Assembly (NCBI GenBank): GCA_038230455.1
Contig: JBBRNF010000007.1
Span: forward strand, 160,293-224,292
Reading direction: 5' to 3'
Source of the DNA: Terriglobales bacterium
Lineage (GTDB): Bacteria; Acidobacteriota; Terriglobia; Terriglobales; Acidobacteriaceae
DNA: 64,000 nucleotides
Shown: positions 21,401-35,788 of the stretch, piece by piece
Layout: each line of letters begins with the position of its first letter
Position numbering within the stretch: the first letter of the stretch is position 1
Notes under the pieces: generated by a model
Database searches by the model: none
Seen by the model: the letters and a program-made list of their open reading frames with translations, nothing else
Told to the model about the DNA's origin: nothing
Translations under genes and position numbers: made by a program

Positions 21401-21909
21401 GGAACAACTGGGGGATCGGGCTGCCGATCGCGAGCCAGAACAGCAGTCAATGGTCGTTCCAACAACCGCTGCTGGCGAACGGCGCGCTGAAGCCGCTCTC
21501 GACGGAGATCGCGGCGACGACCGCAGCGTTCCAGGAGTTCCTGAAAATCCGCGACAGCTCCGGCCTGTTCCGGATGGGTACATTCACCGAGGTGCAGAAC
21601 AACCTGCACTTCCTCAACAGCGGTACAGCCCAGACTCCAGGGCTGATCGTGATGGAGTTGGACGCAAACGGCGGCCGCTACGGCCGCTACGGGCACATCG
21701 TTGTCGTCTCCAACGCAAATACGACGCAGCAGAGCTATACGGCAAGCGCGCTGGCGGGGCTGGATCTGCGGCTGCACCCGGTGCAAAAGTACGGTAGCGA
21801 TGTAGTCGTGAAGACGGCAACGTTCGATCTGAAGACCGGGACACTGGTGGTGCCGGGGCTAACGACGGCGGTGTTCGTGAACGGTAGCGAGGGAGACAAC
21901 GGGCACTAA
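18457..21909 (+). CDS. Pullulanase-type alpha-1,6-glucosidase (GH13) with two N-terminal CBM41-like repeats
   Basis: GGAG RBS before the ATG at 18457, and signal peptide MSHFPRLRIALFVVLLMSAFSAVANA. Two ~110-aa repeats are present (IRIHYFRPDGAYAGWTIYAFGDTT.. / ARVHYYRPDNNFAGWYVYAFNDTT..). GH13 motifs are VIQDVVFNHT, IDGFRFDIL, YIYGEGFNF and YVSVHDN. Confidence 0.85.
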   Translation: MSHFPRLRIALFVVLLMSAFSAVANAVTPIPANHIRIHYFRPDGAYAGWTIYAFGDTTEDTNNYGGGPVQIAGSDSFGVFFDVGVTSGAKNVGLIIHNNCCKDPGPNEYVNPSVQGNEFWQVSSTTELFTSPPNTANAKNPAIPANVARVHYYRPDNNFAGWYVYAFNDTTADTNNYGGGPIPVAGTDNYGAYFDVPLKLNNPQDIGFIVHNIQNGTKDTPDDRHLNVYLYNEVWIISGDPMLYLTQPSASQLLNGSFLKAQAFWIDRSTVLIQQAYLQNGGQYFLASDPAAGLALTNTGVTGGTNVPLTAGGTLTAAQKARFPQLSTGYAVLTLPATLKQTDYDALVRGQLAVFVERADGSLTYATGVQDAGALDDLYAYTGRLGVIVRGSSWEDYSDWRDFDDDNAGALKLKVWAPTAQSMNAELFKADGDTTPAKTVPMHEHNGVWVVTLDSTWIGKYYLLEEKVYAPSVRSVVDNVVTDPYSIDLALNATKSRFTDMNARENTPTGWKDDKAPALARVNDLSIYELHVRDFSIGDATVPAEHRGTYLAFTDNHSDGMRHLNQLAASGLKAIHLLPTFHFNSINEDKTTWLATPSLSGFAPDSQSQQAAVTAVQSADGYNWGYDPDHYLAPEGGYAVNPSFRVREYRQMVMGLHRAGLRVIQDVVFNHTSGFGQANNSILDKVVPNYYNRLDNDGNLETGSCCADTATEHLMMGKLQQDAILWNVKKYKIDGFRFDILSFTFIQNINQIQQELAKLTLAKDGVDGSKVYIYGEGFNFGETANSALGLNASQLNLYGNGVGTFNDRIRDGVRGGGPFDDERVQGFATGLFNDPSTYTTSNTASSAQLNTLLHRTDWIKIGLTGNLRDYSFVDATGVTRTGAQLDYQGQPTGYTATPIEAINYVSVHDNQDLFDAIQVKASAADTAATRARRQVLAMSLVELGQGIPFFQAGDDLLRSKDMDQNSYDSGDWFNKIDWTGLGNNWGIGLPIASQNSSQWSFQQPLLANGALKPLSTEIAATTAAFQEFLKIRDSSGLFRMGTFTEVQNNLHFLNSGTAQTPGLIVMELDANGGRYGRYGHIVVVSNANTTQQSYTASALAGLDLRLHPVQKYGSDVVVKTATFDLKTGTLVVPGLTTAVFVNGSEGDNGH

Positions 21910-21944
21910 TCACCGCTGCCCACTTCGGACGAAGATAGGAGACG

Positions 21945-21980
21945 GTCGGCCTGGCTAATTAGCCAGGCCGACTTCTCATT
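21945..21980 (+). terminator. Putative rho-independent terminator after the pullulanase gene
   Basis: 12-bp perfect stem GTCGGCCTGGCT/AGCCAGGCCGAC with loop AATT (21945-21972), followed by TTCTCATT (a weak U-tract). Confidence 0.5.
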
Positions 21981-22165
21981 CGGCACAGGGAAAGCGCCAC
22001 GTCAAGCTTAGTGCCGATCTAGTTTCTTGCAGGCGTAGCGGCGAATTGCGAACTGGCAAAAAGAGGATTGTTGGCTCCAAATTGCGCCTCCGACTTGAGG
22101 GCAGAAAGTTCAGTTTCAGCGAACCGCCGACGCCGGCCGTTTCAGGGCCGCGCGATGCTGTACTT

Positions 22166-22357
22166 TTAACTACTTAGTCGTTCCCGAACGACGCTTAAGT
22201 CCGTGGAACGGCGGGCAAGACGGCCTGGTTGCGGGTGCGAAATGCGGTGTGAAACGTTGGACACCAGACCGGCCCCACGCGCACGTTCTTCCAGCATGGC
22301 GAACTCCGCCTCGCTGACCTTGGTGCCGACTGATTTTGTACGGAGCGGCGGCTTCAT
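22166..22357 (-). CDS. Small ribbon-helix-helix-like protein (MobC/CopG-like) or remnant of one
   Basis: MKPPLRTKSVGTKVSEAEFAMLEERARGAGL resembles the RT+x+V+xEE+xxLxxxAxxAGLS N-terminus of MobC/RHH accessory proteins. The remainder is not recognisable. The call is weak. Confidence 0.25.
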   Translation of the reverse strand: MKPPLRTKSVGTKVSEAEFAMLEERARGAGLVSNVSHRISHPQPGRLARRSTDLSVVRERLSS

Positions 22358-22727
22358 CGCGCACCGCCTGACTGGATTGTGAGGGACTGGCCGCACACTG
22401 CCTGTGCGTCGGGGAGAAGACAGCAAGGGGGCCGGAGGCGGGCTAAGGGGTTGAGACTCATATGGTTCCCCAACAGCAACGTGCGCTCACCTCTAGGGTA
22501 CGCCGCTCAGACCGTTTTTTCTATTAGCCGCTTGTTTTCATATAGTTCCCGCACAGGAACCCAAGGTTACTCCGCAGCACCCATTCTGGGGTGACGTGTC
22601 ATGCCTACAGCCGATGCGAAGCAGCGTGGTTTTTCTCTAGGTCGGCACGGCTCTCGGATGGAGCCACAGACGCAGCAAGGCCGCCCCCGAAGGGACGGCC
22701 TGCGAGAACTGCACCTACTCGACAGAA

Positions 22728-23117
22728 CTATGCATCGGTTACCTTCTCAAACGAGTTCCTGATCCAGGAAATCACAGAGAGAACCTCCGTTTCAATCGCC
22801 CACAGCGAACTGTCGATCACCTCTAGATGGATTATCTCTTCAGAAGGTTCGACCTGAGTCTTCGCAACCAAGGTTAGATTAATCACCTCATCGATCTTCC
22901 CCGACGTGGATATCAGCTCTTCCCAGGCCATGCAGACGCCGTCTGCTCGACTGGACACCTTCGTTTCAAAAACCAGGATATCTTTGCCAACTGCTTCGAT
23001 ATCCTCGAAACACCATTGGTAACTGCGGACCTCTAGGGGCATCGAGGAAAGGATTTGGGTTAGGTCGAACTTCAATGCCCCACCTGAGTCAAGATCAAAT
23101 ATTTCGAGTCTTTTCAT
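22728..23117 (-). CDS. Candidate cytoplasmic immunity protein for RHS-CT cassette 2
   Basis: 129-aa acidic protein with no signal peptide that starts 7 nt after the stop of the upstream toxin-tip ORF. It lies in a lower-GC region. No recognisable motif, so the assignment is by position only. Confidence 0.5.
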   Translation of the reverse strand: MKRLEIFDLDSGGALKFDLTQILSSMPLEVRSYQWCFEDIEAVGKDILVFETKVSSRADGVCMAWEELISTSGKIDEVINLTLVAKTQVEPSEEIIHLEVIDSSLWAIETEVLSVISWIRNSFEKVTDA

Positions 23118-23124
23118 CGTGACC

Positions 23125-23883
23125 TCAAGAACTTGGCGGGGGCTTAGGAGTAGGCGGTTTTGGATCGACCGGCTGTTGAGGCATCCGCTTTCCGTCGCTG
23201 GGACGGTACGGGTGCTCGTGAGGAACGTCAGGATGCTCCTTAGGTCGACCGTGATCTGTATGGTCTATGTCCTTAACTGGCTTGCCGTTCGCATCAAATT
23301 TCACGTCCTTGCACATAGGACCAGCCCTCCCGTCTTTGACACCTAGTTGCGTATGCGGATTGCCAGCCGCTTCGGCATCCGGGACGGGTCTTCCATCTTT
23401 GTCTCTGGGTAGAGGATCCTGCGCTGTTCTCGGCTGGGTTGCGCCGACAGGAGCCGCCGGGGAAAGAGCGGACGACACAGCATTGCTTAGGTTCGCGATT
23501 GCAGCTTGTCCTTGCGGGGAATGGATGTACGCTTCCACGGCGACCGTTGCGGCAGTCGCAACAGCAGCAACCGCGATATAAGTGGCTACGCCCTCCCCGA
23601 TACAAAGATCCCAGAAACAGTGCCCATCTTTATCCGCACGAGCCAGCGGGTTGTTTCTGACGTACTGATACAGGTTCAACGTCTGTGGATCATCCAGCGA
23701 CGAATAGGGCACGGCTTCCGGCTTGTCAGCCCAGTCTGGGCTCATCCATCGCCCCATGTTGCTGGCATAGTACCTGGCCCCGAAGTAGTCGAGGCCCGAC
23801 TCTGCATCTCTTTCTTTGCCGGTATAACGAGATTTGAAGAGCACAAGGTGTGGAGCGCAGTCATAGATGAATGCGGTTTGCAT
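23125..23883 (-). CDS. Orphan RHS C-terminal cassette 2 (core-end motif + unrelated His-rich C-terminal domain)
   Basis: From the ATG at 23883 (7 nt after the preceding stop): YTGKERDAESGLDYFGARYYASNMGRWMSPDW...NLYQYVRNNPLARADKDGH is the end of the RHS-associated core. It is followed by a hydrophobic helix and GNPHTQLG...DIDHTDHGRPKEHPDVPHEHPY and a Pro-rich tail. The track ORF (to 24117) overlaps the upstream gene and is probably too long. Confidence 0.7.
   Translation of the reverse strand: MQTAFIYDCAPHLVLFKSRYTGKERDAESGLDYFGARYYASNMGRWMSPDWADKPEAVPYSSLDDPQTLNLYQYVRNNPLARADKDGHCFWDLCIGEGVATYIAVAAVATAATVAVEAYIHSPQGQAAIANLSNAVSSALSPAAPVGATQPRTAQDPLPRDKDGRPVPDAEAAGNPHTQLGVKDGRAGPMCKDVKFDANGKPVKDIDHTDHGRPKEHPDVPHEHPYRPSDGKRMPQQPVDPKPPTPKPPPSS
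23620..23826 (-). repeat. RHS core-end homology block, copy 2
   Basis: This 207 nt encodes YTGKERD...DKDGH. It is clearly homologous at DNA level to 25115-25321 (e.g. gtacctggccccgaagtagtc / gtacctagccccgaagtagtc, ctctttctttgccggta in both). Confidence 0.7.
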
Positions 23884-23890
23884 CGTACAT

Positions 23891-24586
23891 TCAACGGGGT
23901 ATCGCGCCGACCTTCCTTTCAGCGCGAGCCTTGATCGTTGCCTTCTCCTTTGACAGTACTGAGATGGGAATCGGAGTTCCGAATACGTTATAGGACTTGC
24001 GGGTTGTGTAGCTGTCCAGTGTCCTATATCGTCCAACCGCCGAATCGAAGTAGAACGTCCGAATTTGATATTTGTGTTCACCCTCAATAGTGGCGTCCGG
24101 CACGCTTGTGAATTCACCGATGCTTACGAGAGGGAACCGCGACACAACCCGATCAAACCACATTTGATGGTCGCCTTGCCTAGAGAGCACAATCTTAGGC
24201 AGCAAATTCTCCAACATGGCGGAGCTTGGGTTGTAAACCACTGCTGCAAGCCAGAGAGCCGTCCCGCTCCCGCCGGAATTTTGAGTTGCCGAGAAAAGTC
24301 CGATCTGAGTCTTCTCACCTATGGGGAACGGGAAGAAACTGATGAGTGGTGAATCAAAATACAGGTCATTTCCCTCGCCTGCCTGAAGACAGTGCTTATT
24401 CAAATCACCCTCTATGGCGAAGCAGACTTCAGCGTAGCCTTTCGGGTCATCCGGATCACCCGCGTGTAATTCATATGAGGCCGGTTTGGAGGCCCCATAG
24501 AGAATTACTAGAGGCTGACTCAGAATCTGGCAAGAAGCAGATAGGAGCAAAATAAGTGCCACCAATAAACTTTTAATCATCGTCAT
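23891..24586 (-). CDS. Candidate exported (signal peptide / possible lipoprotein) immunity protein for RHS-CT cassette 1
   Basis: MTMIKSLLVALILLLSASCQ signal. The gene starts 9 nt after the stop of the upstream toxin-tip ORF. No recognisable family motif. Confidence 0.5.
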   Translation of the reverse strand: MTMIKSLLVALILLLSASCQILSQPLVILYGASKPASYELHAGDPDDPKGYAEVCFAIEGDLNKHCLQAGEGNDLYFDSPLISFFPFPIGEKTQIGLFSATQNSGGSGTALWLAAVVYNPSSAMLENLLPKIVLSRQGDHQMWFDRVVSRFPLVSIGEFTSVPDATIEGEHKYQIRTFYFDSAVGRYRTLDSYTTRKSYNVFGTPIPISVLSKEKATIKARAERKVGAIPR

Positions 24587-24595
24587 CTCCTGTCT

Positions 24596-25756
24596 TCAAT
24601 TTGTCTTTGGTTGTGGCGGGGTCGGCGGGGGGGGAGGGGTGGGCGCAGGTGCAGGCGTTGGAGCGGGTGTAGGTGCCGGTGTTGGCGCAGGTGTCGGCTG
24701 TGGTACGACGGTTCCCGTTTTGTTTCCTTCTCGCTGAGTCTGAGCAGCTTCCATTTTCTTGCGCTGTTCAGGCGTAAGGTCGCTGATTTTTGTCCCCGGT
24801 GGAACTCCCGCAGCAGCTGCCAATGCAGCCAAATAAGCTGCTTGAATGGCTGCGGGATCTCCTTTGGTCCACTCTTTGACTGCATCCTCAAGGCTTAAGT
24901 CTTGATACTTTGGCCTTTGCCACTGTGCATCTTGAGCTGCCTGACCCACGTCCATTGATAGGAAAATCGCGAATCCTCCGGAGTCCTGACCGATAGCGCC
25001 AAGTTTCTTCGCTAGACCACTGTAGGCCATGTTTCCAGGATTATTGTTTCTCCAAGATCTGTCTCCGCCGACTTTCGTTTCGCCTCCATATTGGGTCTTG
25101 CATTTAGGACACTCGTGCCCGTCTTCATCAACTTGGGATAAGGGATTGTTATTTACGTAGGCATAGAGGTTCAACGACTGAGGGTTCGAGAGTTCTGCGT
25201 AAGGGATCGGCGTTGGTTTTGAATACCAGTCCGGCGACATAAACCGGCCCATTGAGCTTGCGTAGTACCTAGCCCCGAAGTAGTCGTTGCCTGATTCTGT
25301 ATCTCTTTCTTTGCCGGTAAACTTGTACTTGGTATTGTCACCATCGGGTGGCTGCGGCCCGATGTAGTTCACCGTATTTCCATCAATGACTTCCTGCCCG
25401 AACGGCGTGAACTGTCCCTGCCACACCGGCCATCCGCCTGCGCTCAACTCCATCTGCGTCGTGCCGAGATAATCATTGAGATAGTAGTTGGTGTTCACGG
25501 TTGCGTCCGGAGTAGCGGTCTGCTCGGTAGCGAATACGAAATCGTGGCCCCCACAGGGATTCCAGAGGCTTCCACTGATTGCTTGACCAGTCATCAGACG
25601 AAGGACGCTCCCATCCTTGCGCGCGATGACCATAGTAGCAAACCAAACATCCCACTTACCCGGACCGATGGGTGTACCAACCATCCCAGAAATCAAAAAC
25701 CGCTTTCGACCCAATGACGGATGGAAAGCGGAGGCAAGACTTTCGCAAGGAACCAT
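24596..25756 (-). CDS. Orphan, 5'-truncated RHS C-terminal cassette 1 (core end + divergent C-terminal domain with PT-rich tail)
   Basis: NYYLNDYLGTTQMEL...FTGKERDTESGNDYFGARYYASSMGRFMSPDW...NLYAYVNNNPLSQVDEDGH is the RHS core end. It is followed by ~170 aa of unrelated sequence (CPKCK, WRNNNPGNM, (PTPA)n tail). Only ~215 aa precede the tip. The frame is closed by an in-frame TAG inside the tRNA gene that begins 18 nt upstream. Confidence 0.75.
   Translation of the reverse strand: MVPCESLASAFHPSLGRKRFLISGMVGTPIGPGKWDVWFATMVIARKDGSVLRLMTGQAISGSLWNPCGGHDFVFATEQTATPDATVNTNYYLNDYLGTTQMELSAGGWPVWQGQFTPFGQEVIDGNTVNYIGPQPPDGDNTKYKFTGKERDTESGNDYFGARYYASSMGRFMSPDWYSKPTPIPYAELSNPQSLNLYAYVNNNPLSQVDEDGHECPKCKTQYGGETKVGGDRSWRNNNPGNMAYSGLAKKLGAIGQDSGGFAIFLSMDVGQAAQDAQWQRPKYQDLSLEDAVKEWTKGDPAAIQAAYLAALAAAAGVPPGTKISDLTPEQRKKMEAAQTQREGNKTGTVVPQPTPAPTPAPTPAPTPAPAPTPPPPPTPPQPKTN
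25115..25321 (-). repeat. RHS core-end homology block, copy 1
   Basis: This 207 nt encodes FTGKERD...DEDGH and is a paralogue of 23620-23826. Confidence 0.7.
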
Positions 25757-25774
25757 CTGAGTTATGGAAAGGGA

Positions 25775-25851
25775 TGGTAGGCACGTCCGGATTCGAACCG
25801 GAGACCTCTACCGTGTCAAGGTAGCGCTCTAACCAACTGAGCTACGCGCCT
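25775..25851 (-). tRNA. tRNA-Val (anticodon GAC), CCA encoded
   Basis: Reverse complement AGGCGCGTAGCTCAGTTGGTTAGAGCGCTACCTTGACACGGTAGAGGTCTCCGGTTCGAATCCGGACGTGCCTACCA. It has a 7-bp acceptor stem (one G-U), D arm GCTC/GAGC, anticodon stem CTACC/GGTAG with loop TTGACAC, and T arm TCCGG/CCGGA with loop TTCGAAT. Confidence 0.95.
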
Positions 25852-25899
25852 TCATGCGTTCGTTCAGTCTACCGCGAACCCCCAGGCCGCCGCAACAAC

Positions 25900-26562
25900 C
25901 TAGACATCGGGCGGCGCTCCCACCGCCACCACCGGATGCGACTGCACCCGCCGAATCACGATCCACGCGTACTCCGCCGCAGACACCGGCGCGAGCACGG
26001 CAATGGTTTTTAGCAGCAGCGCCTTCAGCCCCAGCAGGTGCGGAGCCGCCACCACCTGGCATGTCATCACCGTTAGGAGGCCCAGTATCTGGATCGCCGT
26101 GTTGGCCTTGCCCAGCATGCTGGGCCGGAAGTCGCGCAGCATGCCAGTCGCGAAGAGCAGCGTCGCAATCAGCAGAATCCCCAGGTCGCGGCTGAACACC
26201 AGCACCGTCACATACCGCGGAATCACACCAACGTGCATCAGCACCAGGAACAGCGTGCTCATCAGCAGTTTGTCCGCGATCGGATCAAGATACAGCCCCA
26301 GCGTCGTCTTCTGCTTCAACAGCCGCGCGGCCAGCCCGTCCAGGCCGTCGCTTACACCCGCAATCCACAACAGCGCAAACGCCAGCTTCCAGTGACCGTC
26401 CAGTATCTCGATCACCAGGAATGGCAACACAAACAGCCGCAGCATAGTCAGCAGGTTAGGGGCGGCGCGGAATTGGCGAATCGTGTTCAAAGCAGGCAAA
26501 TTGTCCCGGACGATCGAAAGGACTATCGCATAGTAGCTGATTAACTCCACAACTTTTCGCAC
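25900..26562 (-). CDS. CDP-alcohol phosphatidyltransferase (PgsA-like)
   Basis: SDGLDGLAARLLKQKTTLGLYLDPIADK matches D(x)2DG(x)2AR(x)8G(x)3D(x)3D. The protein is multi-TM. The track start is a GTG, so the N-terminus is uncertain. Confidence 0.8.
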   Translation of the reverse strand: MRKVVELISYYAIVLSIVRDNLPALNTIRQFRAAPNLLTMLRLFVLPFLVIEILDGHWKLAFALLWIAGVSDGLDGLAARLLKQKTTLGLYLDPIADKLLMSTLFLVLMHVGVIPRYVTVLVFSRDLGILLIATLLFATGMLRDFRPSMLGKANTAIQILGLLTVMTCQVVAAPHLLGLKALLLKTIAVLAPVSAAEYAWIVIRRVQSHPVVAVGAPPDV

Positions 26563-26755
26563 GAGGGCGAGCTAACCGAAGCCTGCGCCACGGACGGGTT
26601 GCCGCACGAGGACTTGTGCGCTGCAGACGCGAGTCTTTCGGCTAGGCCGAAGGCCCAGGAAGCGAGTAATCTCCAGTGCCGATCGTGCAGCAGGAGCAAG
26701 CCTGGCCACGATGGGACGTTGCGAACAACGACTCAACAATCGCTACACTGGGAGC

Positions 26756-27919
26756 ATGGGTACCCTCTCGCTCGCAGTGGAGATTTTCGCGGCGCTTATT
26801 ACAGCGAGCGGAATCGCGTATGGCCTGCTGGCGTTGTGGGGCGCGCGCGACTTCGACCATCACTCCCGTGAGAACCGGGCCCGGCAGATCAACTTCGCTC
26901 CGAATGTGTCCATCCTGAAGCCCGTGAAAGGGGCGGATCCGCAGATGTTTGCCGCGTTTGCGAGTCATTGTCAGCAGACATACAGCGGGAACTTCGAGCT
27001 GCTGTTCGGCGTCGGTACACTTGAAGATCCAGCTGTGGCGGACATTGCGCGGCTGCGCATCGAGTACCCGCAGGTGGCAATTCGCCTAATCGAGTGTCCG
27101 CTGCGGCTGGGGACCAGCGGCAAGGTCTCTAACCTGGCGCAGATGCTGCCGCTGGCGAGCTACGAACACCTCGTGATCAACGACAGCGACATCCTGGTGT
27201 CCCCAACGTATCTGGCGCGCGTGATGGCCCCCCTTGCCGATGCGACTGTCGGCCTGGTCACGGTGCCGTACATCGGTCGTGCGGAAAACACTCTGTGGTC
27301 GCGGCTGGAAGCTCTGGGGATCTCCACCGATTTTATGCCGGGAGTGCTGACGGCACGCAAGCTCGAAGGCGGCATCCGTTTTGGGCTCGGCTCCACGCTG
27401 GCTACCACCAGGGCGGCGCTTGCGGCTGCGGGCGGGCTCGCTTCGCTGACCGAGTGCCTGGCCGACGACTATGAGATCGGCGCGCGCATCGCGGCCAACG
27501 GTCTGCGCGTGGAGCTGGTCAGCGAAGTGGTCGCAACCACCGTTCCGGCCTACACGCTGCGGGGCTTTTGCGAGCACCAATTGCGCTGGGCACGGTCAAC
27601 GCGTGACTCGCGCCGCTGGGGATATGTCGGTCTCGGCGTGACGTACGTTCTGCCGTGGGCGTTGGCGACGGTGATTGCCACAGGGGGCGCGCTTTGGAGC
27701 TTTTCGCTGCTGAGCCTGGCGCTGCTGGTGCGCGTCGCCGTTGCACTGACGGTCGGCGTGGGCGTCCTGCGCGACGCGCAGGTGCTGAGAGACATCCTCC
27801 TGCTTCCAGTGCGCGACGGGTTTGGGCTATTTTTCTGGTTCTGGAGCTATGCCGGCGACTCGGTTGTGTGGCGTGGGGAGCGGTTTCGTCTACGCCGGGG
27901 GCGGCTGGAACGCGCGTAA
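26756..27919 (+). CDS. GT2/GT21-type glycosyltransferase (HpnI / ceramide glucosyltransferase-like)
   Basis: N-terminal TM, then VSILKPVKGADP...NFELLFGV...VINDSDILV...(Q)HQLRWARS, the pattern of HpnI/glucosylceramide synthase-like enzymes. GGGAG precedes the ATG at 26756. Confidence 0.6.
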   Translation: MGTLSLAVEIFAALITASGIAYGLLALWGARDFDHHSRENRARQINFAPNVSILKPVKGADPQMFAAFASHCQQTYSGNFELLFGVGTLEDPAVADIARLRIEYPQVAIRLIECPLRLGTSGKVSNLAQMLPLASYEHLVINDSDILVSPTYLARVMAPLADATVGLVTVPYIGRAENTLWSRLEALGISTDFMPGVLTARKLEGGIRFGLGSTLATTRAALAAAGGLASLTECLADDYEIGARIAANGLRVELVSEVVATTVPAYTLRGFCEHQLRWARSTRDSRRWGYVGLGVTYVLPWALATVIATGGALWSFSLLSLALLVRVAVALTVGVGVLRDAQVLRDILLLPVRDGFGLFFWFWSYAGDSVVWRGERFRLRRGRLERA

Positions 27920-27951
27920 AGGGCACCACCTGTGCTTTCGGTGCACCGGAG

Positions 27952-30141
27952 TTAGGGCTTGGGTTTGAGGGTGCGATCGAAGAAGGCGGCTGCCGCGGTG
28001 TAGGCGGCCAGCCAGTCTTTATGGAGCAGGAAGGTGTGGACCTCGTCGGGGAAGATGAGTTCCTCGACCGGAACGTTGCGGGCGCGGAGCGCGTCTGCGA
28101 GCAGCGGGGTCTGGGAGTAGGCTACGTCAGGGTCGTCGTCGCCGTGAATGAGGAGGATGGGTGAACGCCACTTTGCGATGTCGGCCATCGGGGAGCTGGC
28201 GTGGGCGAGGGCCGCAATGCGGGCGATTTCCGTAGGGTCGGAGGTGGGGCTGCGGAGCCAGTCTGCGGGGGCGTTGTCTTCGAGCGACCACTCGTGGACG
28301 CCGTGAAAGTCGACGCCAGCGGCGAAGAGGTTGGAGTTGCGGGCGAGGGCAAGCGCGGTGAGGTAGCCACCGTAGCTTCCACCCCAGATGCCGATGTGGG
28401 CAGCGTCAACGTCGGGACGGGAGGCGAGGTATTTATGCGCGCCGAGGACGTCGGCGTACTCGGCGGCGCCGTCGGCTCCGCAATGCTCGCATTGGCGGAA
28501 GTTGAGGCCGTATCCGATCCCGCCGCGATAATTCACGCTCAGCACAATGTATCCGCGCGAAGCAAGGTACTGGTTCATGGCGTAAGCGTTGGAGTAGTAG
28601 TCCATGGCGGGATAGCCGAGGAGCATCTGGCGGCGGGGGCCTCCGTGGAAGAAGAGGATGGCCGGGTGTTTGATGGGGGAGGGAGTTTTGGGGAGAAAGA
28701 GCTGGCCGTGGAGCTCGAAGAGTTTGTCGGAGGAGGGGAAGAGGACTTGTTGCGGGAGGATGAGTTCGCCGGGATTTTGTTTGGGTTGCGCGTTCGGATG
28801 AAGCAGGTTCGATCTACCCTGCACATCGATCAGCGCTGGGCGTAGGGGCGCTCTTGCGTCGGAGACTAAAGCAGCGAGACGGGACGTCGCGCCGTACACG
28901 GCATGGGTTTCGATACCGTCTCCACCCGTGACCGCATACGGGCTTGGCGTCGCCCAGCGGAGATCGATTTCCCAGAGATGACGCCGATCTGAATCCAGCG
29001 GATCGCGGCTGGAGCGGGAGGCCGTGCAAGGTGGTTTGGCGCAAGCATTGTCACGGATTGATTCTGGATCGTTCGCAGAGAAGAAGACGATCTGCCCGTC
29101 TTGGCTGACGCTGACGTCTTCGACTTCGTACCGGCCTGGCGTCAGCAGCGACGGTGGGCTCGACTTTTCAGGGTCAAGTGCGTAGAGGTGCACCCAGCCA
29201 TCGGCTTCCGAGAAGAACAGGACGTGCTTGTCGGCAGTCCAGTAGAGATGAGGATCGCCAGTGGACATGCGGGGTTCGGCGCTGCCCGGTTGGTTGGGTT
29301 GAGGGGTGAAGACGGTGCGACTCTCGTGGGTGGTGAGGTCAAGCAGTTGGATCGACCAGGGGTTGGCTGAGGTGCGGTGGGTGGCGAACTCGGGGGCTTC
29401 GGTGAAAGGGTTGCGGAGCCAGGCTAGTTGCTTGCCGTCGCGGGAGAAGCTGGGCGCGGAATCGTTGCCGGTGGAAGGCGCGGGGAAGGTGAGGGTTTGT
29501 GTAGCGAGGTCGAAGAGAGCGAGGAAGGCGTGGGTACCGCGGTGCGAGATGTAGGCGAGCGCCTTGCCGTCGGGGGAGAGGGTGAGGGCCGACGCAGAGC
29601 CGCGGTCGTAGAGGATTTGGTGCGGAGGTGATAAAGAGGCCGCCGCCGGACAATTTTTGACGCACGCCACGAAGATCTGGCCGGAGCGGAGGAAGAAGAT
29701 CGAGGCGCCGTCGTGGGTGAAGAACGGCGCGCGGCCTTCGCCGATAACAGTGGCTGGCGCGTTTGGCTCGAGCGGCTGGAGGATGACCTGGAGCGCGGTG
29801 CTACGTTGCAGGTGGGCGGGGTTAGCGGGCTTGCCGCTATGGCCAAACTCGGCACCATAGGTGTAGGCGATGGCGGAGGCGTCGGGTGACCAGGCGAGGT
29901 TGGCGAGGTCCTGGCCGTCGTCGTCGGTGTAGTGGGTGATGGCACGCGCGGACTCATGGGCGCTGGCGATCCAGATGTTACGCACGCCCGCGGCGTTTTC
30001 GACCCATGCGAAGCGGTCTCCGACGGGAGCTGCGGTGAGCGAGAGCGCGTAGGGTGCGGCGAGAGTCTGTTCGAGCGTGAAGGTCTGTTGCGCAAAGACG
30101 GGAAGAGCGGCCAGGACGAGAAAAGCTGCGAGGGGGCGCAT
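27952..30141 (-). CDS. S9 family serine peptidase (prolyl oligopeptidase/dipeptidyl aminopeptidase type) with N-terminal beta-propeller
   Basis: Signal peptide MRPLAAFLVLAALPVFAQQ; repeated WSPDG/SPDGK propeller motifs; nucleophile motif GIWGGSYGGYLT; C-terminal PILLIHGDDDPDV...H. Confidence 0.85.
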   Translation of the reverse strand: MRPLAAFLVLAALPVFAQQTFTLEQTLAAPYALSLTAAPVGDRFAWVENAAGVRNIWIASAHESARAITHYTDDDGQDLANLAWSPDASAIAYTYGAEFGHSGKPANPAHLQRSTALQVILQPLEPNAPATVIGEGRAPFFTHDGASIFFLRSGQIFVACVKNCPAAASLSPPHQILYDRGSASALTLSPDGKALAYISHRGTHAFLALFDLATQTLTFPAPSTGNDSAPSFSRDGKQLAWLRNPFTEAPEFATHRTSANPWSIQLLDLTTHESRTVFTPQPNQPGSAEPRMSTGDPHLYWTADKHVLFFSEADGWVHLYALDPEKSSPPSLLTPGRYEVEDVSVSQDGQIVFFSANDPESIRDNACAKPPCTASRSSRDPLDSDRRHLWEIDLRWATPSPYAVTGGDGIETHAVYGATSRLAALVSDARAPLRPALIDVQGRSNLLHPNAQPKQNPGELILPQQVLFPSSDKLFELHGQLFLPKTPSPIKHPAILFFHGGPRRQMLLGYPAMDYYSNAYAMNQYLASRGYIVLSVNYRGGIGYGLNFRQCEHCGADGAAEYADVLGAHKYLASRPDVDAAHIGIWGGSYGGYLTALALARNSNLFAAGVDFHGVHEWSLEDNAPADWLRSPTSDPTEIARIAALAHASSPMADIAKWRSPILLIHGDDDPDVAYSQTPLLADALRARNVPVEELIFPDEVHTFLLHKDWLAAYTAAAAFFDRTLKPKP

Positions 30142-30405
30142 ATGTCGAGAGTACAGGTGCGATCTGTGTTGTACCGGTGCAGGCTCGCTTCTGGCGGTAA
30201 TTTCCGTTTCAGGAGGGATGGTGCGGTGGGGGCGTTGCCGTCCCGCAAGGCGGGAGAGGTGGGTTTACGGGCCAGATGGCAAGCTGCGTTGTGTAACTTA
30301 GTGCGCCGCGCGGACTCAAATCGTGGCGTCTGCGCATGCTTTGAGAGCTTTTAACTGAATATCGCGCGCTCTTAGAATCGCGTCGCGAATTTGCAAAGGA
30401 GCTTT

Positions 30406-31611
30406 ATGAGCCGCAGTCGATCCATGCTCGCGTTGTCAGCGCTCTTACTCACCCTGCTGGTGAGTGGATGCGGTACGGTAGCGAGCGGGGTAGGGCCCCA
30501 ACCCGCAGCACCTCCCGCCCCGCCGGCCACGACAACCTCCCCCGTACCGGCGCCTAGCGGGCCTGCTCCCACACCCGCGCCCGCAGTCGGTACGGCGAGC
30601 GTGTTCACCATGAACAACAGTGCTTCCGGGAATGCGGTATTGGCCTTCGCGCGCCTGGCGGATGGATCCCTGGCGGCGACGGGTACCTATCCGACGGGTG
30701 GACGCGGCACAGGCGGCGGCTTACAAAATCAGGCGGGTGTGGCAATCAGTACGGACGGCAAGTTTCTGTTCGCGGTCAACGCGGGTTCGGACGACTTCAC
30801 GGTCTTCAAGCTCGATTCCTCCGGGCTGAGCGTAGCCTCCCGACCGTCGTCCTCAGGAGCGCATCCGATCAGCGTTGCCGAGCATGGCGGCATCGTTTAC
30901 GTGCTCAATCTTGATAGCACGTCGGGGGCGGCGGGATCGGACAGCGTGAGTGGGTTTGCGATCGATGCCGCTGGCCAGGCAACGCCTATTCCCAATTCCA
31001 CGCGATCCTTGAGCGCAAAGGCAACTTCGGCGGCACAAGTGGCCCTCTCGCCGGATGGAAGTATGCTGCTGGTGACCGAGCGGGGAACCGCGACGATCGA
31101 CGCTTATGTTCTTGATGCGAAGGGTAACCCCAGCGCTCAGCCGATTTTAAACCGGTCGGTCGGATCGATACCTTTCGGCTTCCAGTTTCTGGATGACGGG
31201 CACGTGCTGGTGTCGGAGGAAGGGCCGAACGCCGTTTCTTCCTATATTGTCGGCGGGACGGGAGCGCTGACACCGATCAGCCGTTCGGTGCCCAGCTTTC
31301 AATCGGCGGTCTGCTGGCTCGCCATCTCGCCCGACCATCGCTTTGCGTATACGGGTAATACATCGGGCTCATCGGTTTCGGGATACGCCATTCATCCGGA
31401 CGCCAGTGTGTCGCTGCTGGTGCAGAACGGTCTTTCGGCGGCCACCGACGGCGGTGCTCTGGACCTGACGGTGAGCAGTGACAGCCGGTATCTCTACGTA
31501 GTCCTGACCGGCGGCACTCTGGAGACTTTTTCCATCGACACCGCAGGCGGCCTGCGCAAGGTGCAGTCGATATCGTCGCTCGGTCAACTGAACGGCGTGA
31601 TCGCCTTGTAG
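30406..31611 (+). CDS. Lipoprotein, 7-bladed beta-propeller lactonase-like family
   Basis: Lipobox LLVSGCG, a Pro/Ala-rich linker, then repeated blades (SPDGSMLLVTERG, RYLYVVLTGG, HGGIVYVLN) typical of the 3-carboxymuconate cyclase/6-phosphogluconolactonase-like propeller family. Confidence 0.6.
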   Translation: MSRSRSMLALSALLLTLLVSGCGTVASGVGPQPAAPPAPPATTTSPVPAPSGPAPTPAPAVGTASVFTMNNSASGNAVLAFARLADGSLAATGTYPTGGRGTGGGLQNQAGVAISTDGKFLFAVNAGSDDFTVFKLDSSGLSVASRPSSSGAHPISVAEHGGIVYVLNLDSTSGAAGSDSVSGFAIDAAGQATPIPNSTRSLSAKATSAAQVALSPDGSMLLVTERGTATIDAYVLDAKGNPSAQPILNRSVGSIPFGFQFLDDGHVLVSEEGPNAVSSYIVGGTGALTPISRSVPSFQSAVCWLAISPDHRFAYTGNTSGSSVSGYAIHPDASVSLLVQNGLSAATDGGALDLTVSSDSRYLYVVLTGGTLETFSIDTAGGLRKVQSISSLGQLNGVIAL

Positions 31612-31729
31612 GCCTGACACCCCCGGCGCGGAAGCTCGTCGATCTTCGGCGACTGAGGGGAACCCTGCCTGTAACTTTCGCGGGGGTGGAGCATCTCACC
31701 TCACGAACCGCAAGGAAAGGCTCATCGAC

Positions 31730-32335
31730 ATGGCAGACGGAACTTTCTCAGCAGGGGCAGCACACACAAGGATGGCGGGCCGATGGAACAGGAGTCGCGC
31801 TTCCTGGCTGGCGGTGGCGGGACTTATGGTCGCGGCTATCGGCGCGGCGGGACAGACACCTGTCGTCGGAACGAAGGCTCCGGACTTCGTTCGCTCCACA
31901 CCGTCTGGCGGGCAGGTTCGCCTGTCGGACCTGATCTCGAAGGGCACGACAGTTCTGGTGGTTCTACGCGGATTCCCTGGATATCAGTGTCCGTACTGCG
32001 AAAAACAGGTGCACGACTTTGTTCAACATGCGCCGGAGTTTGCGGCCAAGAAGGCCAACGTGCTGCTGGTCTATCCCGGACCCCCAGCCGAACTGGACGC
32101 GCACGCAAAAGAGTTTCTGGCGAAACAGGGCGACCTGCCGGCGAATATTCAGCTGGTAACCGACCCGGACTACACAATGACCAATCAGTACGGTCTGCGC
32201 TGGAACGCACCGAAAGAGACAGCCTATCCGGCCACTTTTCTATTGGATGGCAACGGCAAGGTGTTCTTCGTCAAGGTAAGCCATAGCCATGGCGACCGGG
32301 TGTCTGCGGAAGAGACGCTCTCGCATCTGCCGTAA
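31730..32335 (+). CDS. Secreted peroxiredoxin/redoxin-family thioredoxin-fold protein
   Basis: VGTKAPDFV...TVLVVLRGFPGYQCPYCEKQVHDF is an AhpC/TSA-type motif with CPYC. AAGGAAAGG RBS lies 9 nt upstream. Confidence 0.75.
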   Translation: MADGTFSAGAAHTRMAGRWNRSRASWLAVAGLMVAAIGAAGQTPVVGTKAPDFVRSTPSGGQVRLSDLISKGTTVLVVLRGFPGYQCPYCEKQVHDFVQHAPEFAAKKANVLLVYPGPPAELDAHAKEFLAKQGDLPANIQLVTDPDYTMTNQYGLRWNAPKETAYPATFLLDGNGKVFFVKVSHSHGDRVSAEETLSHLP

Positions 32336-32411
32336 TTCCGCAAATTCGTCGACCGGGTACAGGTGCAGCCAGGGACTTTCCCTGGCTCTTGCGTCGGACT
32401 TGAGGCGGGAC

Positions 32412-32771
32412 TTACGCGGGCTGGGCTTCTTCGCCGAGCAACGCGAGCACCAGATGTTCGGCGTTGAGATAAATCTGTTTCCGCTGGTCGGCGTTTTGCT
32501 GTGCTGCGGCGAACACCCGAATCAGAGTGGGCGAAAGCGCCAGGTCGGCGGCCATGGAAACGCGTTCGCCAGCTGGTCCTCGTGCGGCAAGGCGATGTTC
32601 GATCAGCGGCAAGGTGATATGTGGGGCGAGGCGCTTGATCAGGCGCCTCTGCTCGCGGAGCAGGCCGAGCCAGAGGTGCTCCGCCTCCAGCACCGACGAG
32701 CCGAGGCGGCTGGCTTCGTAGCGCGCCAGGAGGATGACTTTGCGAGAATCTTCGGCGTAGCGTTCCAGCAT
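32412..32771 (-). CDS. Stand-alone Clp N-terminal (Clp_N repeat) domain protein
   Basis: MLERYAEDSRKVILLARYEASRLGSSVLEAEHLWLGLL... and a second repeat ...VFAAAQQNADQRKQIYLNAEHLVLALL match the two-repeat ClpA/ClpB/ClpC N-domain. No AAA+ module follows. Confidence 0.7.
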   Translation of the reverse strand: MLERYAEDSRKVILLARYEASRLGSSVLEAEHLWLGLLREQRRLIKRLAPHITLPLIEHRLAARGPAGERVSMAADLALSPTLIRVFAAAQQNADQRKQIYLNAEHLVLALLGEEAQPA

Positions 32772-33048
32772 GCTTGGTCTGAGCGTATCGCAGCGCTATA
32801 GGCGAGACAAGGTGCGGAGTGGTTTGTGCGCCGGATTTGCCCGTCTGGCTCGATGGAGCGGTGCGTGTGGCAGGGATCGTGTCGGTGCGGCTAGCGGTCT
32901 GATAAGCTGGCAAATTTGTGTGCGTCTTTTGCCGAAAACAGAAGACTTCCTGGGGCGTTTGGAATTGAAAAAAGCACAGGGAACAGCGTTGGCCGTTCCC
33001 TGTCGTGGAGTCATAGAGTGGTTTCGTTGAGTCGTTTTATTTCCGAAC

Positions 33049-34320: not shown

Positions 34321-34391
34321 TGGTGTACTCCTAAGTGGTGCCGGTTTCGGCGGGAAGCAGGTCCTCCGCGTGCGGCGAAGGATGACAATAT

Positions 34392-34850
34392 CTAGAGCCC
34401 GATGCTGACCAGACCGCCCGCAACCGCGGCGTAGTGCGACGGATCACTGGCCTCGACGAGGTCAGAAATGCGGATACCGGAGAGCAGGTCCTTGATGCTG
34501 TCGTTGACCTTGCGCAATGGTTCTTTGATGGTGCAGTGGCCGTGAAGGTCGCAGGTTCCGTGGATGGTGATGCAACTGGTGATGAAAAGCGGACCGTCGA
34601 TTGCGCGTATCACTTCAAAAGCGGAGATTTCGTGTGCCGATCGCGCCAGGGCGTAGCCGCCATTGGTGCCGGCATGAGACACCAGTATCCCCGCCCGGGT
34701 AAGCGTCTGCAGAATCTTGGCCAGAAGCTGAGGCGGTATATGGTAGGCTTCGGCGATTTCTTTGGCCGATTGTGCATGAGACTCAGCCTGCTCGGCCAGG
34801 TACTTGAGGGCCATGAGGCCGTAGTCCGCTTTTTTAGTAAGCCTGAGCAT
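34392..34850 (-). CDS. iscR: Rrf2 family transcriptional regulator (IscR-like)
   Basis: [19 protein letters not shown]...[42 protein letters not shown], with a Cys cluster (C..C.....C) further downstream. Confidence 0.85.
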
Positions 34851-35000
34851 GGGAAGGGTGGCCCGTCAGCGAACTCAGGACCGATTTCAGTGTACGGCTT
34901 GAGGTACGGCGGAAGCAAGACCGAAGCAGTCGTATTTCAAGTGTAATGGCGTGCGCTATTTGCTAAACTGCACCCGACAGGCGATGTGCTGAGGTGGTCT

Positions 35001-35777: not shown

Positions 35778-35788
35778 GTGACCGGGAT

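What the first reader, a model, noticed from the sequence alone, without database searches (positions are those of the whole stretch)
22728..25775. Array of two orphan RHS toxin-tip/immunity cassettes abutting tRNA-Val, with no full-length rhs gene
Reading leftward from the 3' end of tRNA-Val(GAC) there are four tightly spaced minus-strand genes with 7-9 nt gaps. They are an RHS fragment with divergent tip 1, a small exported protein, an RHS core-end fragment with divergent tip 2, and a small cytoplasmic protein. Both RHS fragments retain the conserved core end (F/YTGKERDxESGxDYFGARYYAS.MGR.MSPDW...NLY.YV.NNPL...D.DGH) and then diverge completely. This is the hallmark of polymorphic-toxin tip exchange, and the two 207-nt core-end blocks are obvious DNA paralogues. 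Orphan modules are normally found downstream of a full-length rhs gene. Here the first fragment has only ~215 aa of Rhs sequence, and its frame is closed by a stop inside the tRNA gene, so the main gene is absent from the locus. No integrase, VgrG/PAAR or other delivery gene is present. A hand count gives 28/60 G+C at 24061-24120, against 40/60 in the adjacent pgsA-like gene. This could be a silent reservoir of toxin/immunity modules, an immunity-only protective island, or the decayed end of a tRNA-integrated element.
Basis: partly seen in the sequence, partly recalled or inferred. Interest (0 to 1): 0.7.

Follow-up and report, generated by a model that had tools for sequence, protein, structure and literature searches.

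The report
Orphan Rhs toxin/immunity islet at tRNA
Beside a valine tRNA gene, this soil acidobacterium carries two "warhead plus antidote" gene pairs left over from Rhs bacterial-warfare toxins but lacks the gene that would deliver them; this kind of arrangement is already known and probably serves mainly to protect against neighbours' toxins.

Summary
Four tightly packed minus-strand genes follow tRNA-Val(GAC). Two 5'-truncated rhs fragments each keep the Rhs-associated core end (TIGR03696, E about 1e-18) and then diverge, and each is followed by a small gene. The 64-kb window has no other Rhs sequence, no integrase and no delivery gene, and the islet's GC3 is 0.45-0.64 against 0.76-0.80 in the flanks.

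Tip 1 is an intact lysozyme-fold peptidoglycan hydrolase of the phage Enc34 endolysin type. The catalytic Glu is conserved and dN/dS is 0.07. Its partner has a Sec signal peptide. Tip 2 is Ntox24-like, but a 1-nt deletion and a 1-nt insertion 19 nt apart scramble the family's invariant Y-x-Q-x-R-E motif. Both toxin/immunity pairings recur in other acidobacterial contigs.

A related contig shares exactly the unit core-end 1, tip 1, imm1, core-end 2, then carries a different tip. That is cassette exchange at the core-end blocks. In five of seven informative related loci the arrays also lack a main gene, and some lie next to integrases or IS elements.

The most likely reading is a horizontally acquired orphan immunity islet that also holds one usable toxin cassette. 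No att repeat or integrase shows how it arrived. It is a new member of a known kind, of modest interest.

The parts
25775..25851 (-). tRNA-Val(GAC). The islet begins 19 nt after its 3' end, on the same strand.
   Evidence: ARAGORN; Rfam tRNA model, 70.4 bits.
25757..25774 (-). tRNA trailer. About 16 nt are still similar to the relatives L001 and L002. Homology with the relatives ends here, at about 25759.
   Evidence: Junction alignment.
24596..25756 (-). rhs fragment 1 (386 aa). Aa 1-26 are a non-Rhs leader. Aa 27-214 are the end of the Rhs shell plus the core end (25115-25678). Aa 215-350 are tip 1 (24707-25114). Aa 351-386 are a Pro-rich tail. There is no Shine-Dalgarno sequence before the ATG.
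24707..25114 (-). Tip 1, an Enc34-endolysin-type (PHA02564-like) lysozyme-fold peptidoglycan glycosidase domain. The invariant Glu (aa 343 of the ORF, in the 'REG' motif beginning at 24733) aligns with the catalytic Glu of the Enc34 endolysin.
   Evidence: AF2 model pLDDT 81.6. Foldseek top hit 7q47, E 6e-4, TM 0.62. Profile against PDB: 7q47 E 7.8e-10, 9vvp_L E 2.9e-15. PHROG 2276 E 6e-7. dN/dS 0.07 against L087.
23891..24586 (-). imm1, the predicted immunity protein for tip 1. It has a Sec-type signal peptide and a likely start at the ATG at 24580, preceded by AGGAG with 6-nt spacing. It matches no known family.
   Evidence: Found directly downstream of tip 1 in L081, L087, L093 and L094.
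23125..23883 (-). rhs fragment 2 (252 aa). Rhs homology starts at 'YTGKERD'. The core end (through the DGH motif) is 23620-23883. A hydrophobic helical linker follows, then the Ntox24-like tip at 23128-23430. There is no Shine-Dalgarno sequence.
23299..23319 (-). Seven scrambled codons (PMCKDVK). A 1-nt deletion near 23320 and a 1-nt insertion near 23301 put the family's invariant Y-x-Q-G-R-E motif out of frame; the +1 frame still reads SYVQGRE. There is also a 3-nt insertion near 23229-23231 in the H-x-N-P-H motif.
   Evidence: Three-frame translation. Protein alignment with 12 homologues. DNA alignment with the intact homologue in L096.
22728..23117 (-). imm2, the predicted cytoplasmic immunity protein for tip 2 (129 aa). 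GAGG lies 5 nt before the ATG. It matches no known family.
   Evidence: Homologues follow tip 2 homologues in L085/L086 (38% identity) and L096 (51% identity).
22678..22701 (-). G+C-rich hairpin (10-bp stem, UUCG loop, extendable to 22661-22720) immediately after the imm2 stop. Probably the end of the transcription unit.
   Evidence: RNA fold -32.6 kcal/mol, z -2.6. There is no U tail, so terminator function is inferred.
22490..22627 (-). Conserved non-coding element also found downstream of Rhs fragments in two other acidobacterial contigs. In one of them it lies just upstream of an IS5-like transposase. It may be an IS-end remnant or a locus-associated site and probably marks the left edge of the islet.
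   Evidence: No RNA-structure support and no Rfam match.
22166..22426 (-). 86-aa ORF with a weak ribbon-helix-helix (NikA-like mobilisation protein) resemblance. It may be a mobile-element remnant.
   Evidence: Pfam NikA-like, E 0.06, below threshold. Weak evidence only.

Best explanation
What it is. This is a small, compositionally foreign islet of about 3.1 kb (roughly 22.66-25.76 kb). It consists of two 'headless' rhs C-terminal toxin/immunity modules placed directly after tRNA-Val(GAC).

Module 1 encodes the last ~190 residues of an Rhs shell and core, fused to an intact lysozyme-fold peptidoglycan glycosidase of the phage Enc34 endolysin type. A Sec-exported immunity protein follows. This is the expected pairing for a toxin that acts in the periplasm.

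Module 2 keeps only the last ~70 core residues, fused to a hydrophobic linker and an Ntox24-like tip (a predicted RNase). A compensated frameshift scrambles the conserved motif of that tip. A cytoplasmic immunity protein follows.

How it probably works. Neither fragment has YD repeats, a signal peptide or another N-terminal delivery domain, so neither toxin can be encapsulated or exported from this locus. The likely working output is the two immunity proteins. They would be translated from their own Shine-Dalgarno sites on a transcript that probably reads through from the upstream pgsA-like gene and tRNA-Val, and would protect the cell against the matching Rhs toxins of neighbours. Tip 1 is kept intact as a cassette that can be exchanged by homologous recombination at the conserved core-end blocks.

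Shown: the gene anatomy, the family assignments, the lesion in tip 2, the conserved toxin/immunity pairing, the cassette exchange and the foreign composition.

Inferred: expression, protective function and the route of arrival.
For: Anatomy:
- Core-end HMM hits on both fragments, with no RHS_repeat hits.
- No other Rhs sequence in the window and housekeeping flanks.

Tip 1:
- Profile match to the Enc34 endolysin catalytic domain, E 7.8e-10, with the invariant Glu aligned to the catalytic Glu region (PMC8943055).
- Fold match to 7q47.
- The domain co-occurs with PG_binding_1, VanY and phage tail proteins.
- dN/dS is 0.07 over 136 codons against L087.
- imm1 has a signal peptide that is conserved across homologues, while its Cys is not.

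Tip 2:
- The family reaches the Ntox24 gathering score in homologue P0131.
- Y39, R43, E44, F45 and N68 are conserved in all 12 homologues and lost only in the window copy.
- The cause is a -1/+1 indel pair seen at DNA level.
- The rest of the domain is strongly constrained (pN 0.06 vs pS 0.72).

Pairing and exchange:
- Tip 1 with imm1 in L081, L087, L093 and L094; tip 2 with imm2 in L085/L086 and L096.
- The shared unit 23614-25321 has unrelated flanks in L087 and L093.

Translation and transcription signals:
- AGGAG and GAGG precede imm1 and imm2, and nothing similar precedes either rhs fragment. The background motif frequency is 10%.
- This matches Poole et al. 2011, where orphan toxin fragments lack translation initiation signals yet the orphan immunity protein is made (PMC3150448).
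- No promoter-like site was found in the scanned region (21800-26700), and no terminator-like site lies between the tRNA and fragment 1.
- A hairpin follows imm2.

Foreign origin:
- GC3 of the four genes is 0.53-0.59 against 0.76-0.80 in the flanks.
- The genes are absent downstream of tRNA-Val in all related loci.
Against: - Expression is not shown. The promoter scan covers only sigma-70-type sites, and Shine-Dalgarno use in this genome seems low (8 of 42 first starts), so two of two immunity genes against none of two toxin fragments is weak statistics.
- Tip 1 is under strong purifying selection, which an immunity-only role does not explain. A recent transfer from a functional full-length gene, or use as a toxin after recombination, would explain it.
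- A full-length rhs gene may exist elsewhere in the genome. The contig is 271 kb and only 64 kb could be read.
- The indel pair in tip 2 could be an assembly error. The identical Logan contig (L084) may derive from the same reads.
- Neutralisation of either toxin by its neighbour gene is untested.
Confidence: 0.6

Rival explanations
1. Silent toxin reservoir. The modules are kept as substrates that recombine, through the conserved core-end blocks, with a full-length rhs gene elsewhere in the genome, so that the strain can switch the toxin it delivers. This mechanism was shown for the Salmonella orphan Rhs.
For: - Tip 1 is intact, keeps its catalytic Glu and has dN/dS 0.07.
- Recombination exactly at the core-end blocks has happened in this lineage, as shown by the shared unit 23614-25321 in L087 and L093.
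- A classical 'main rhs plus orphans' locus exists in Acidobacteria (L088).
- Koskiniemi et al. 2014 (PMC3967940, listed) is the precedent.
Against: - There is no full-length rhs gene in 64 kb. Recombination with a distant locus would invert or delete the intervening chromosome unless it proceeded by gene conversion.
- Tip 2 is disabled.
- The core-end blocks are only 67-80% identical to each other.
- This explanation is not exclusive of the immunity reading.
Confidence: 0.25
2. Functionless debris. The islet is the decaying end of a mobile element or of a deleted rhs locus and has not yet been purged.
For: - Fragment 1 is truncated within about 80 nt of the tRNA junction.
- The tip 2 motif is scrambled.
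- To the left lie a possible IS-end remnant and a weak RHH remnant.
- The region is rearranged relative to the closest available genomes.
Against: - All four ORFs are open and spaced 7-9 nt apart.
- The second indel restored the tip 2 frame instead of leaving it broken.
- Both immunity genes keep Shine-Dalgarno sites.
- dN/dS is 0.07 for tip 1 and 0.26 for imm1.
- Headless modules recur in many acidobacterial genomes.
Confidence: 0.15
3. Intracellular toxin-antitoxin-like modules. The orphan tips are made inside the cell from internal start sites and, with their immunity proteins, regulate growth. This was reported for Salmonella Rhs orphans.
For: - Starsta et al. 2020 (PMC7043789) is the precedent.
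- Ntox24 versions also occur in toxin-antitoxin systems (Zhang et al. 2012, PMC3482391).
Against: - Tip 1 is a cell-wall hydrolase with an exported immunity protein and has no signal peptide of its own. Made in the cytoplasm, it would not meet its substrate.
- The conserved motif of tip 2 is scrambled.
- No promoter-like site or Shine-Dalgarno sequence was found for either fragment.
Confidence: 0.05

Closest known systems
Orphan rhs-CT/rhsI (and cdiA-CT/cdiI) modules (Poole et al. 2011, PMC3150448; Koskiniemi et al. 2014, PMC3967940)
   Same: These are 5'-truncated toxin gene fragments that keep a variable length of conserved core. An unrelated C-terminal toxin follows the conserved motif. A small immunity gene comes immediately after. 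The toxin fragment has no translation start signals. The same tips are fused to other cores elsewhere.
   Different: The classical orphans lie directly downstream of a full-length rhs gene. Here no main gene lies within 64 kb and the first fragment abuts a tRNA gene. The host is an acidobacterium. The related Rhs protein whose N-terminus was examined (L094) has a Sec signal peptide rather than a PAAR domain.
Orphan immunity islets and acquired interbacterial defence (AID, rAID-1) clusters (Ross et al. 2019, bioRxiv 10.1101/471110; Barretto and Fowler 2020, PMC7400221)
   Same: These are horizontally acquired, compositionally skewed clusters that are unlinked to any delivery system. Their useful products are immunity proteins against toxins the host does not deliver. 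Pseudogenised remnants occur among them.
   Different: This islet has only two immunity genes, each still attached to its toxin fragment. There is no recombinase and there are no integron-like intergenic repeats in the window. Tyrosine recombinases do sit next to related cassettes in L081 and L094.
Enc34-type endolysin catalytic domain, family PHA02564 (Cernooka et al. 2022, PMC8943055; PDB 7q47)
   Same: Tip 1 matches by sequence profile (E 7.8e-10) and by fold (TM 0.62). It keeps the catalytic Glu, and Tyr94 and Trp82 probably correspond to the paper's Tyr95 and Trp79 (the Tyr and Trp correspondence is read from the alignment, not tested).
   Different: Here the domain is the C-terminal tip of an Rhs fragment and is paired with a secreted inhibitor-like protein. 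It is not a phage lysis enzyme with a C-terminal membrane anchor. The searched paper library does not link this domain to polymorphic toxins.
Ntox24 polymorphic-toxin domain (Zhang et al. 2012, PMC3482391; Pfam PF15529)
   Same: The tip 2 family is all-beta in the predicted model and has conserved Tyr and His residues. It is attached to Rhs cores. One homologue passes the Pfam gathering score.
   Different: The window copy scores 13.9 bits against a cut-off of 24 and has lost the conserved Tyr and the R-E pair through the frameshift pair. Its immunity protein matches neither Imm50 nor Imm53 in Pfam.

Membership tests
Full-length Rhs/YD-repeat polymorphic toxin | YD (RHS) repeat shell | tested here: not met
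   Neither ORF hits RHS_repeat or TEN_YD-shell at E <= 0.1. Only about 190 and 70 residues of the C-terminal end remain.
Full-length Rhs/YD-repeat polymorphic toxin | Rhs-associated core domain ending in the PxxxxDPxGL-type motif | tested here: met
   TIGR03696 hits at E 6.2e-19 and 7.3e-19. The motif variants are NNPLSQVDEDGH and NNPLARADKDGH.
Full-length Rhs/YD-repeat polymorphic toxin | N-terminal delivery domain (PAAR, signal peptide or similar) | tested here: not met
   Fragment 1 begins with 26 non-Rhs residues at the tRNA junction, and fragment 2 begins at the core end. No Pfam hit.
Orphan rhs-CT/rhsI module | 5'-truncated rhs fragment that keeps core homology and is followed by an unrelated C-terminal tip | tested here: met
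   The tips are unrelated to each other and have separate homologue sets.
Orphan rhs-CT/rhsI module | Small gene immediately downstream that travels with the tip (candidate immunity gene) | tested here: met
   imm1 follows tip 1 in four other contigs. imm2 follows tip 2 in two other independent contexts, L085/L086 and L096.
Orphan rhs-CT/rhsI module | Position downstream of a full-length rhs gene | tested here: not met
   No other Rhs sequence in the 64-kb window. The frame is closed inside the tRNA gene.
Orphan rhs-CT/rhsI module | The tip is toxic and is neutralised specifically by the downstream protein | not testable with these tools
   Needs expression experiments.
Enc34-type endolysin domain (PHA02564) | Sequence and fold similarity with the catalytic Glu conserved | tested here: met
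   Profile E 7.8e-10 to 7q47, with the invariant Glu aligned to 'RHEN'. Foldseek E 6e-4, TM 0.62. Residues as given in PMC8943055.
Enc34-type endolysin domain (PHA02564) | Muralytic activity | not testable with these tools
   Needs an enzyme assay.
Ntox24 | Pfam PF15529 score at or above the gathering threshold (24 bits) | tested here: inconclusive
   The window copy scores 13.9 bits. Homologue P0131 scores 25.6 bits, and P0128 and P0125 score 21.9 and 19.0 bits.
Ntox24 | Conserved Tyr and His residues ('Y, H, H' in Zhang et al. 2012) | tested here: not met
   The His residues are kept. The conserved Tyr and the adjacent R-E are lost in the window copy through the indel pair.
tRNA-integrated genomic island | Integrase gene and a direct repeat of the tRNA 3' end at the far boundary | tested here: not met
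   No repeat longer than 10 nt. tBLASTn with the L081 integrase finds nothing, and no integrase is among the flanking genes scanned.
tRNA-integrated genomic island | Starts at a tRNA 3' end, has atypical composition and is absent from relatives | tested here: met
   Caveat: the closest genomes available are only 86-88% identical in the neighbouring protein, and synteny is broken on both sides.
rAID-1 recombinase-associated immunity cluster | 5' XerD-like recombinase followed by co-oriented low-GC immunity genes with repeated intergenic motifs | tested here: not met
   No recombinase in the window. The intergenic gaps are only 7-9 nt.

The most novel reading that the evidence does not exclude
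Headless rhs-CT/immunity cassettes may be autonomous, mobile units in Acidobacteria rather than by-products of a local main gene. Tyrosine recombinases or IS elements would carry them into sites such as tRNA 3' ends. Read-through from the tRNA would then give constitutive immunity. The cassettes would also seed toxin switching by recombination at the core-end blocks.

A narrower version is that the Enc34-type peptidoglycan hydrolase paired with a secreted inhibitor is a previously undescribed Rhs toxin/immunity family.
Probability: 0.15. Interest if true: 0.55.

Novelty: new member of a known kind. Interest (0 to 1): 0.3.

Why it matters
Orphan toxin/immunity modules and immunity islets are well described in Proteobacteria and Bacteroidales but little studied in soil Acidobacteria. 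This locus and its relatives suggest three things.

- Modules without a main gene are common in that phylum.
- They travel with integrases and IS elements.
- They include an unannotated but very widespread cell-wall hydrolase domain (2,487 representative clusters, no Pfam model) used as an Rhs warhead, together with a new secreted immunity protein.

These points give concrete, testable toxin/immunity pairs. None of them overturns current understanding.

Tried and rejected
1. A fixed truncation point for short acidobacterial Rhs proteins, which would have implied a cassette boundary or att site. Alignment starts looked clustered, but the N-termini of 35 homologues start at many different positions. 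Rejected.

2. An att direct repeat of the tRNA 3' end. Nothing longer than 10 nt was found.

3. A 14-nt inverted repeat (22456-22469 and 25749-25762) as transposon ends. About two such pairs are expected by chance in 5 kb (my estimate), 25 similar pairs were reported, and the repeat does not extend. Not accepted.

4. Defining the insertion boundaries by synteny. Relatives keep the pgsA-like gene and tRNA-Val but differ on both sides, so the left boundary cannot be fixed.

5. An integrase related to the one in L081. None was found in the window or in the other loci.

6. The conserved element at 22490-22627 as a structured RNA. Rfam gives no match and three sequences give no covariation.

7. Structure of tip 2. 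Only the C-terminal ~90 residues were modelled with confidence, and Foldseek gave nothing significant; the best hit was a polymorphic toxin at E 0.85.

8. The word-indexed homologue search with tip 1 alone returned a single hit. The exhaustive search was needed.

9. An exact look-up of the 386-aa product found nothing. The public gene call uses a different extent.

10. Immunity proteins against Pfam, NCBIfam, PHROGs and PDB: no matches.

Full report
**The observation**

The region holds four co-oriented minus-strand ORFs:
- 24596-25756 (386 aa)
- 23891-24586 (231 aa)
- 23125-23883 (252 aa from the ATG)
- 22728-23117 (129 aa)

They are separated by 9, 7 and 7 nt. tRNA-Val(GAC) is at 25775-25851 on the same strand. 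The reading frame of the first ORF is closed by a TAG inside the tRNA gene.

Both larger ORFs hit the Rhs-associated core model TIGR03696, at E 6.2e-19 and 7.3e-19. Neither has YD-repeat hits. Homology to other Rhs proteins covers about residues 27-214 of the first ORF and about 18-89 of the second.

The two core-end DNA blocks are 67% identical over 207 nt and 80% over the central 94 nt, with BLASTN E 9e-18. They are real paralogues but only moderately similar. tBLASTn finds no other Rhs sequence in the 64 kb. GC3 of the four genes is 0.53-0.59 (sub-segments 0.45-0.64), against 0.76-0.80 for the flanking genes. The flanks encode a pullulanase, a CDP-alcohol phosphatidyltransferase, a GT21 glycosyltransferase and an S9 peptidase.

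**Organism and locus comparison**

The neighbouring pgsA-like protein places the window in Acidobacteriaceae near Granulicella. The best matches are metagenome-assembled genomes (MAGs) at 86-88% identity.

Most of the relatives sampled keep tRNA-Val(GAC) next to this gene. None of the 80 loci has the Rhs fragments, either small gene or the pullulanase next to the tRNA. Similarity to the two closest loci ends about 16 nt after the tRNA, at window position ~25759, three bases before the ATG of fragment 1. In the closest locus the tRNA is followed by fumarase, TonB and OmpA genes.

Synteny is also broken on the other side of the pgsA-like gene. A 9-kb block is inverted, and genes that lie downstream of the tRNA in L001 sit 25 kb away in the window. 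The comparison therefore shows that the islet is lineage-specific and starts at the tRNA. It does not fix the left boundary or prove a simple insertion. The window contains no repeat of the tRNA 3' end and no integrase.

**Tip 1 and its partner**

Pfam has no model for tip 1. An exhaustive search finds the domain in 2,487 representative clusters. It occurs at the N-terminus, in the middle or at the C-terminus of proteins that also carry PG_binding_1, VanY or phage minor-tail domains. It matches a PHROG tape-measure family at E 6e-7.

[quoted passage not shown] The family's invariant Glu aligns with the endolysin's catalytic Glu region. An AlphaFold model (pLDDT 81.6) has 7q47 as its only significant structural match. 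The Enc34 domain is a demonstrated muralytic enzyme with a permuted lysozyme-like fold, a catalytic Glu131 and important Trp79 and Tyr95 (PMC8943055). Tip 1 keeps a Glu, a Tyr and a Trp that appear to be the equivalents.

Compared with the copy in contig L087, tip 1 has dN/dS 0.07 at dS 0.72. The downstream protein has a Sec-type signal peptide. Its Cys is not conserved, so it is probably not a lipoprotein. It follows tip 1 in L081, L087, L093 and L094 at 52-80% identity. An exported partner is what one expects for a toxin that attacks the cell wall.

**Tip 2 and its partner**

Tip 2 has a hydrophobic helical linker and an all-beta C-terminal domain. Twelve homologues were found. All are short Rhs core-end proteins or fragments, from Acidobacteria, Chitinivorax and Stenotrophomonas. 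One of them passes the Pfam Ntox24 gathering score, while the window copy scores 13.9 bits. Zhang et al. 2012 describe Ntox24 as all-beta with conserved Y, H, H, as a predicted RNase, and as also present in toxin-antitoxin systems (PMC3482391).

In all 12 homologues the motif Y-x-Q-x-R-E-F and an Asn before P-H-E-H are conserved. The window copy reads PMCKDVKF instead. The +1 frame still encodes SYVQGRE. A DNA alignment with the intact homologue in L096 shows a 1-nt deletion and a 1-nt insertion 19 nt apart, plus a 3-nt insertion further on. Outside the seven scrambled codons the domain is 90% identical at saturated synonymous divergence, so the lesion is recent relative to that divergence. 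The toxin is very probably disabled although its frame was restored.

The 129-aa downstream gene has homologues after tip 2 homologues in L085/L086 (38% identity) and L096 (51% identity).

**Cassette exchange and context elsewhere**

L087 and L093 match the window at 81% DNA identity from 25321 (the start of the FTGKERD block of fragment 1) to 23614 (just past the DGH motif of fragment 2). Outside that span they differ. Upstream they carry a different Rhs core, and downstream a different tip. The exchanged unit is therefore bounded by the two conserved core-end blocks. This is the signature of polymorphic-toxin tip exchange by homologous recombination.

Seven related contexts were informative. 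Five lack a full-length rhs gene upstream:
- L081, where a tyrosine recombinase directly precedes the tip 1 cassette
- L082 and L089, each a solo fragment among housekeeping genes
- L085/L086, an array of three core ends
- L091, another array

The other two have long Rhs genes. L088 is a classical main gene followed by orphans, and L083 has a long Rhs gene split into two ORFs. The sample is biased, because these loci were chosen from short proteins on long contigs.

In L094 the tip 1 cassette is followed by a 1,220-aa Rhs-repeat ORF with a signal peptide, which is cut short before its core end. An integrase gene follows it. L096 has an IS110 transposase beside the tip 2 cassette. The missing main gene is thus common in this clade, and the cassettes are repeatedly found next to mobility genes.

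**How it probably works**

Neither fragment can build an Rhs shell or be exported, so the locus cannot deliver a toxin by itself. The two small genes are preceded by AGGAG and GAGG at proper spacing, and the two rhs fragments have nothing comparable. The motif occurs by chance in 10% of such positions. This matches the classical finding that orphan toxin fragments lack translation signals while orphan immunity protein is made (PMC3150448).

No sigma-70-like promoter was found in the scanned region, and no terminator-like site lies between the tRNA and fragment 1. A strong hairpin follows the last gene. Transcription by read-through from the pgsA-like gene and tRNA-Val is therefore plausible but unproven.

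I conclude that the islet most likely acts as a small orphan immunity locus. It resembles the immunity islets and AID clusters described in Salmonella Typhi and Bacteroidales (PMC7400221; bioRxiv 10.1101/471110). Tip 1 remains available as an intact cassette.

Three rivals remain. A silent toxin reservoir needs a main rhs gene elsewhere, which I could not check. Functionless debris is disfavoured by the open, tightly spaced frames and the low dN/dS. A toxin-antitoxin-like role (PMC7043789) is disfavoured by the periplasmic logic of module 1 and the lesion in module 2.

**Novelty**

This is a new member of a known kind.
- the identity of tip 1 and its secreted partner, a pairing I did not find in the searched literature
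- the compensated frameshift in tip 2
- the evidence that headless modules are common in Acidobacteria

None of these would surprise a specialist in polymorphic toxins. Interest is modest.

Noticed in passing
window 22490-22627: A conserved non-coding element lies about 100 nt past imm2. It matches L083 15193-15327 (76% identity, E 1e-19) and L082 11682-11732 (85% identity). Among 96 fetched loci the 22-nt core is found only in L082, L083 and L084 (the last is identical to the window). In every case it is downstream of an Rhs fragment and in the same orientation. In L083 it lies 65 nt upstream of an IS5-like transposase gene. There is no Rfam match and no covariation support.
   Followed up: partly
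window 23299-23319 (also 23229-23231): Compensated -1/+1 frameshift inside the Ntox24-like tip. It replaces the family's invariant Y-x-Q-G-R-E with MCKDVK while keeping the ORF open. A 3-nt insertion also lies in the H-x-N-P-H motif.
   Followed up: yes
window 22661-22720: G+C-rich hairpin with a UUCG loop directly after the imm2 stop codon (-32.6 kcal/mol, z -2.6). It has no U tail.
   Followed up: partly
window 22456-22469 and 25749-25762: 14-nt inverted repeat (13 of 14 matching). One arm spans the tRNA-side junction and the other lies left of the islet. It is within chance expectation for the region and does not extend.
   Followed up: partly
window 22166-22426 (minus strand): 86-aa ORF with a weak ribbon-helix-helix, NikA-like mobilisation-protein resemblance (E 0.06). 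It may be a mobile-element remnant between the pullulanase gene and the islet.
   Followed up: partly
window about 26600-35800 and 50729-52385: Relative to the closest genomes (L001, L002, L027, L005), the aminotransferase class-V gene (33049-34320) and its neighbours up to ~35.8 kb, which directly precede the pgsA-like gene there, lie about 9 kb away and in inverted relative orientation. Genes found 4-7 kb downstream of tRNA-Val in L001 sit at 50.7-52.4 kb, also inverted. The tRNA-Val neighbourhood is a rearrangement hot spot.
   Followed up: partly
window 24707-25114, and 2,487 representative protein clusters elsewhere: The tip 1 domain (motif WRNNNPGN ... EG) is very widespread in phage tail and tape-measure proteins and in bacterial proteins with peptidoglycan-binding domains, yet it has no Pfam model. 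It is related to the Enc34 endolysin family (PHA02564).
   Followed up: yes
L094 1747-7098: A 1,220-aa Rhs-repeat ORF with an N-terminal Sec signal peptide ends before any core-end sequence. About 490 nt further on lies a tyrosine-recombinase gene. This suggests an integrase-bearing element inserted into, or recombined with, an rhs gene.
   Followed up: no
homologues P0018, P0043, P0048, P0089 and window rhs fragment 1, aa 27-90: Acidobacterial Rhs proteins of this subfamily carry a conserved segment between the last YD repeats and the core end. It contains the motif G-x-W-D-x-x-x-A-D-x-x-I-x-x-x-D-G-(T/S)-V. Fragment 1 begins inside this segment.
   Followed up: no
L084 (Logan contig SRR19962015_493333): A 3,005-nt contig from a public sequencing run is 100% identical to window 22327-25331, so the same strain (or the same reads) is present in that run.
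   Followed up: partly
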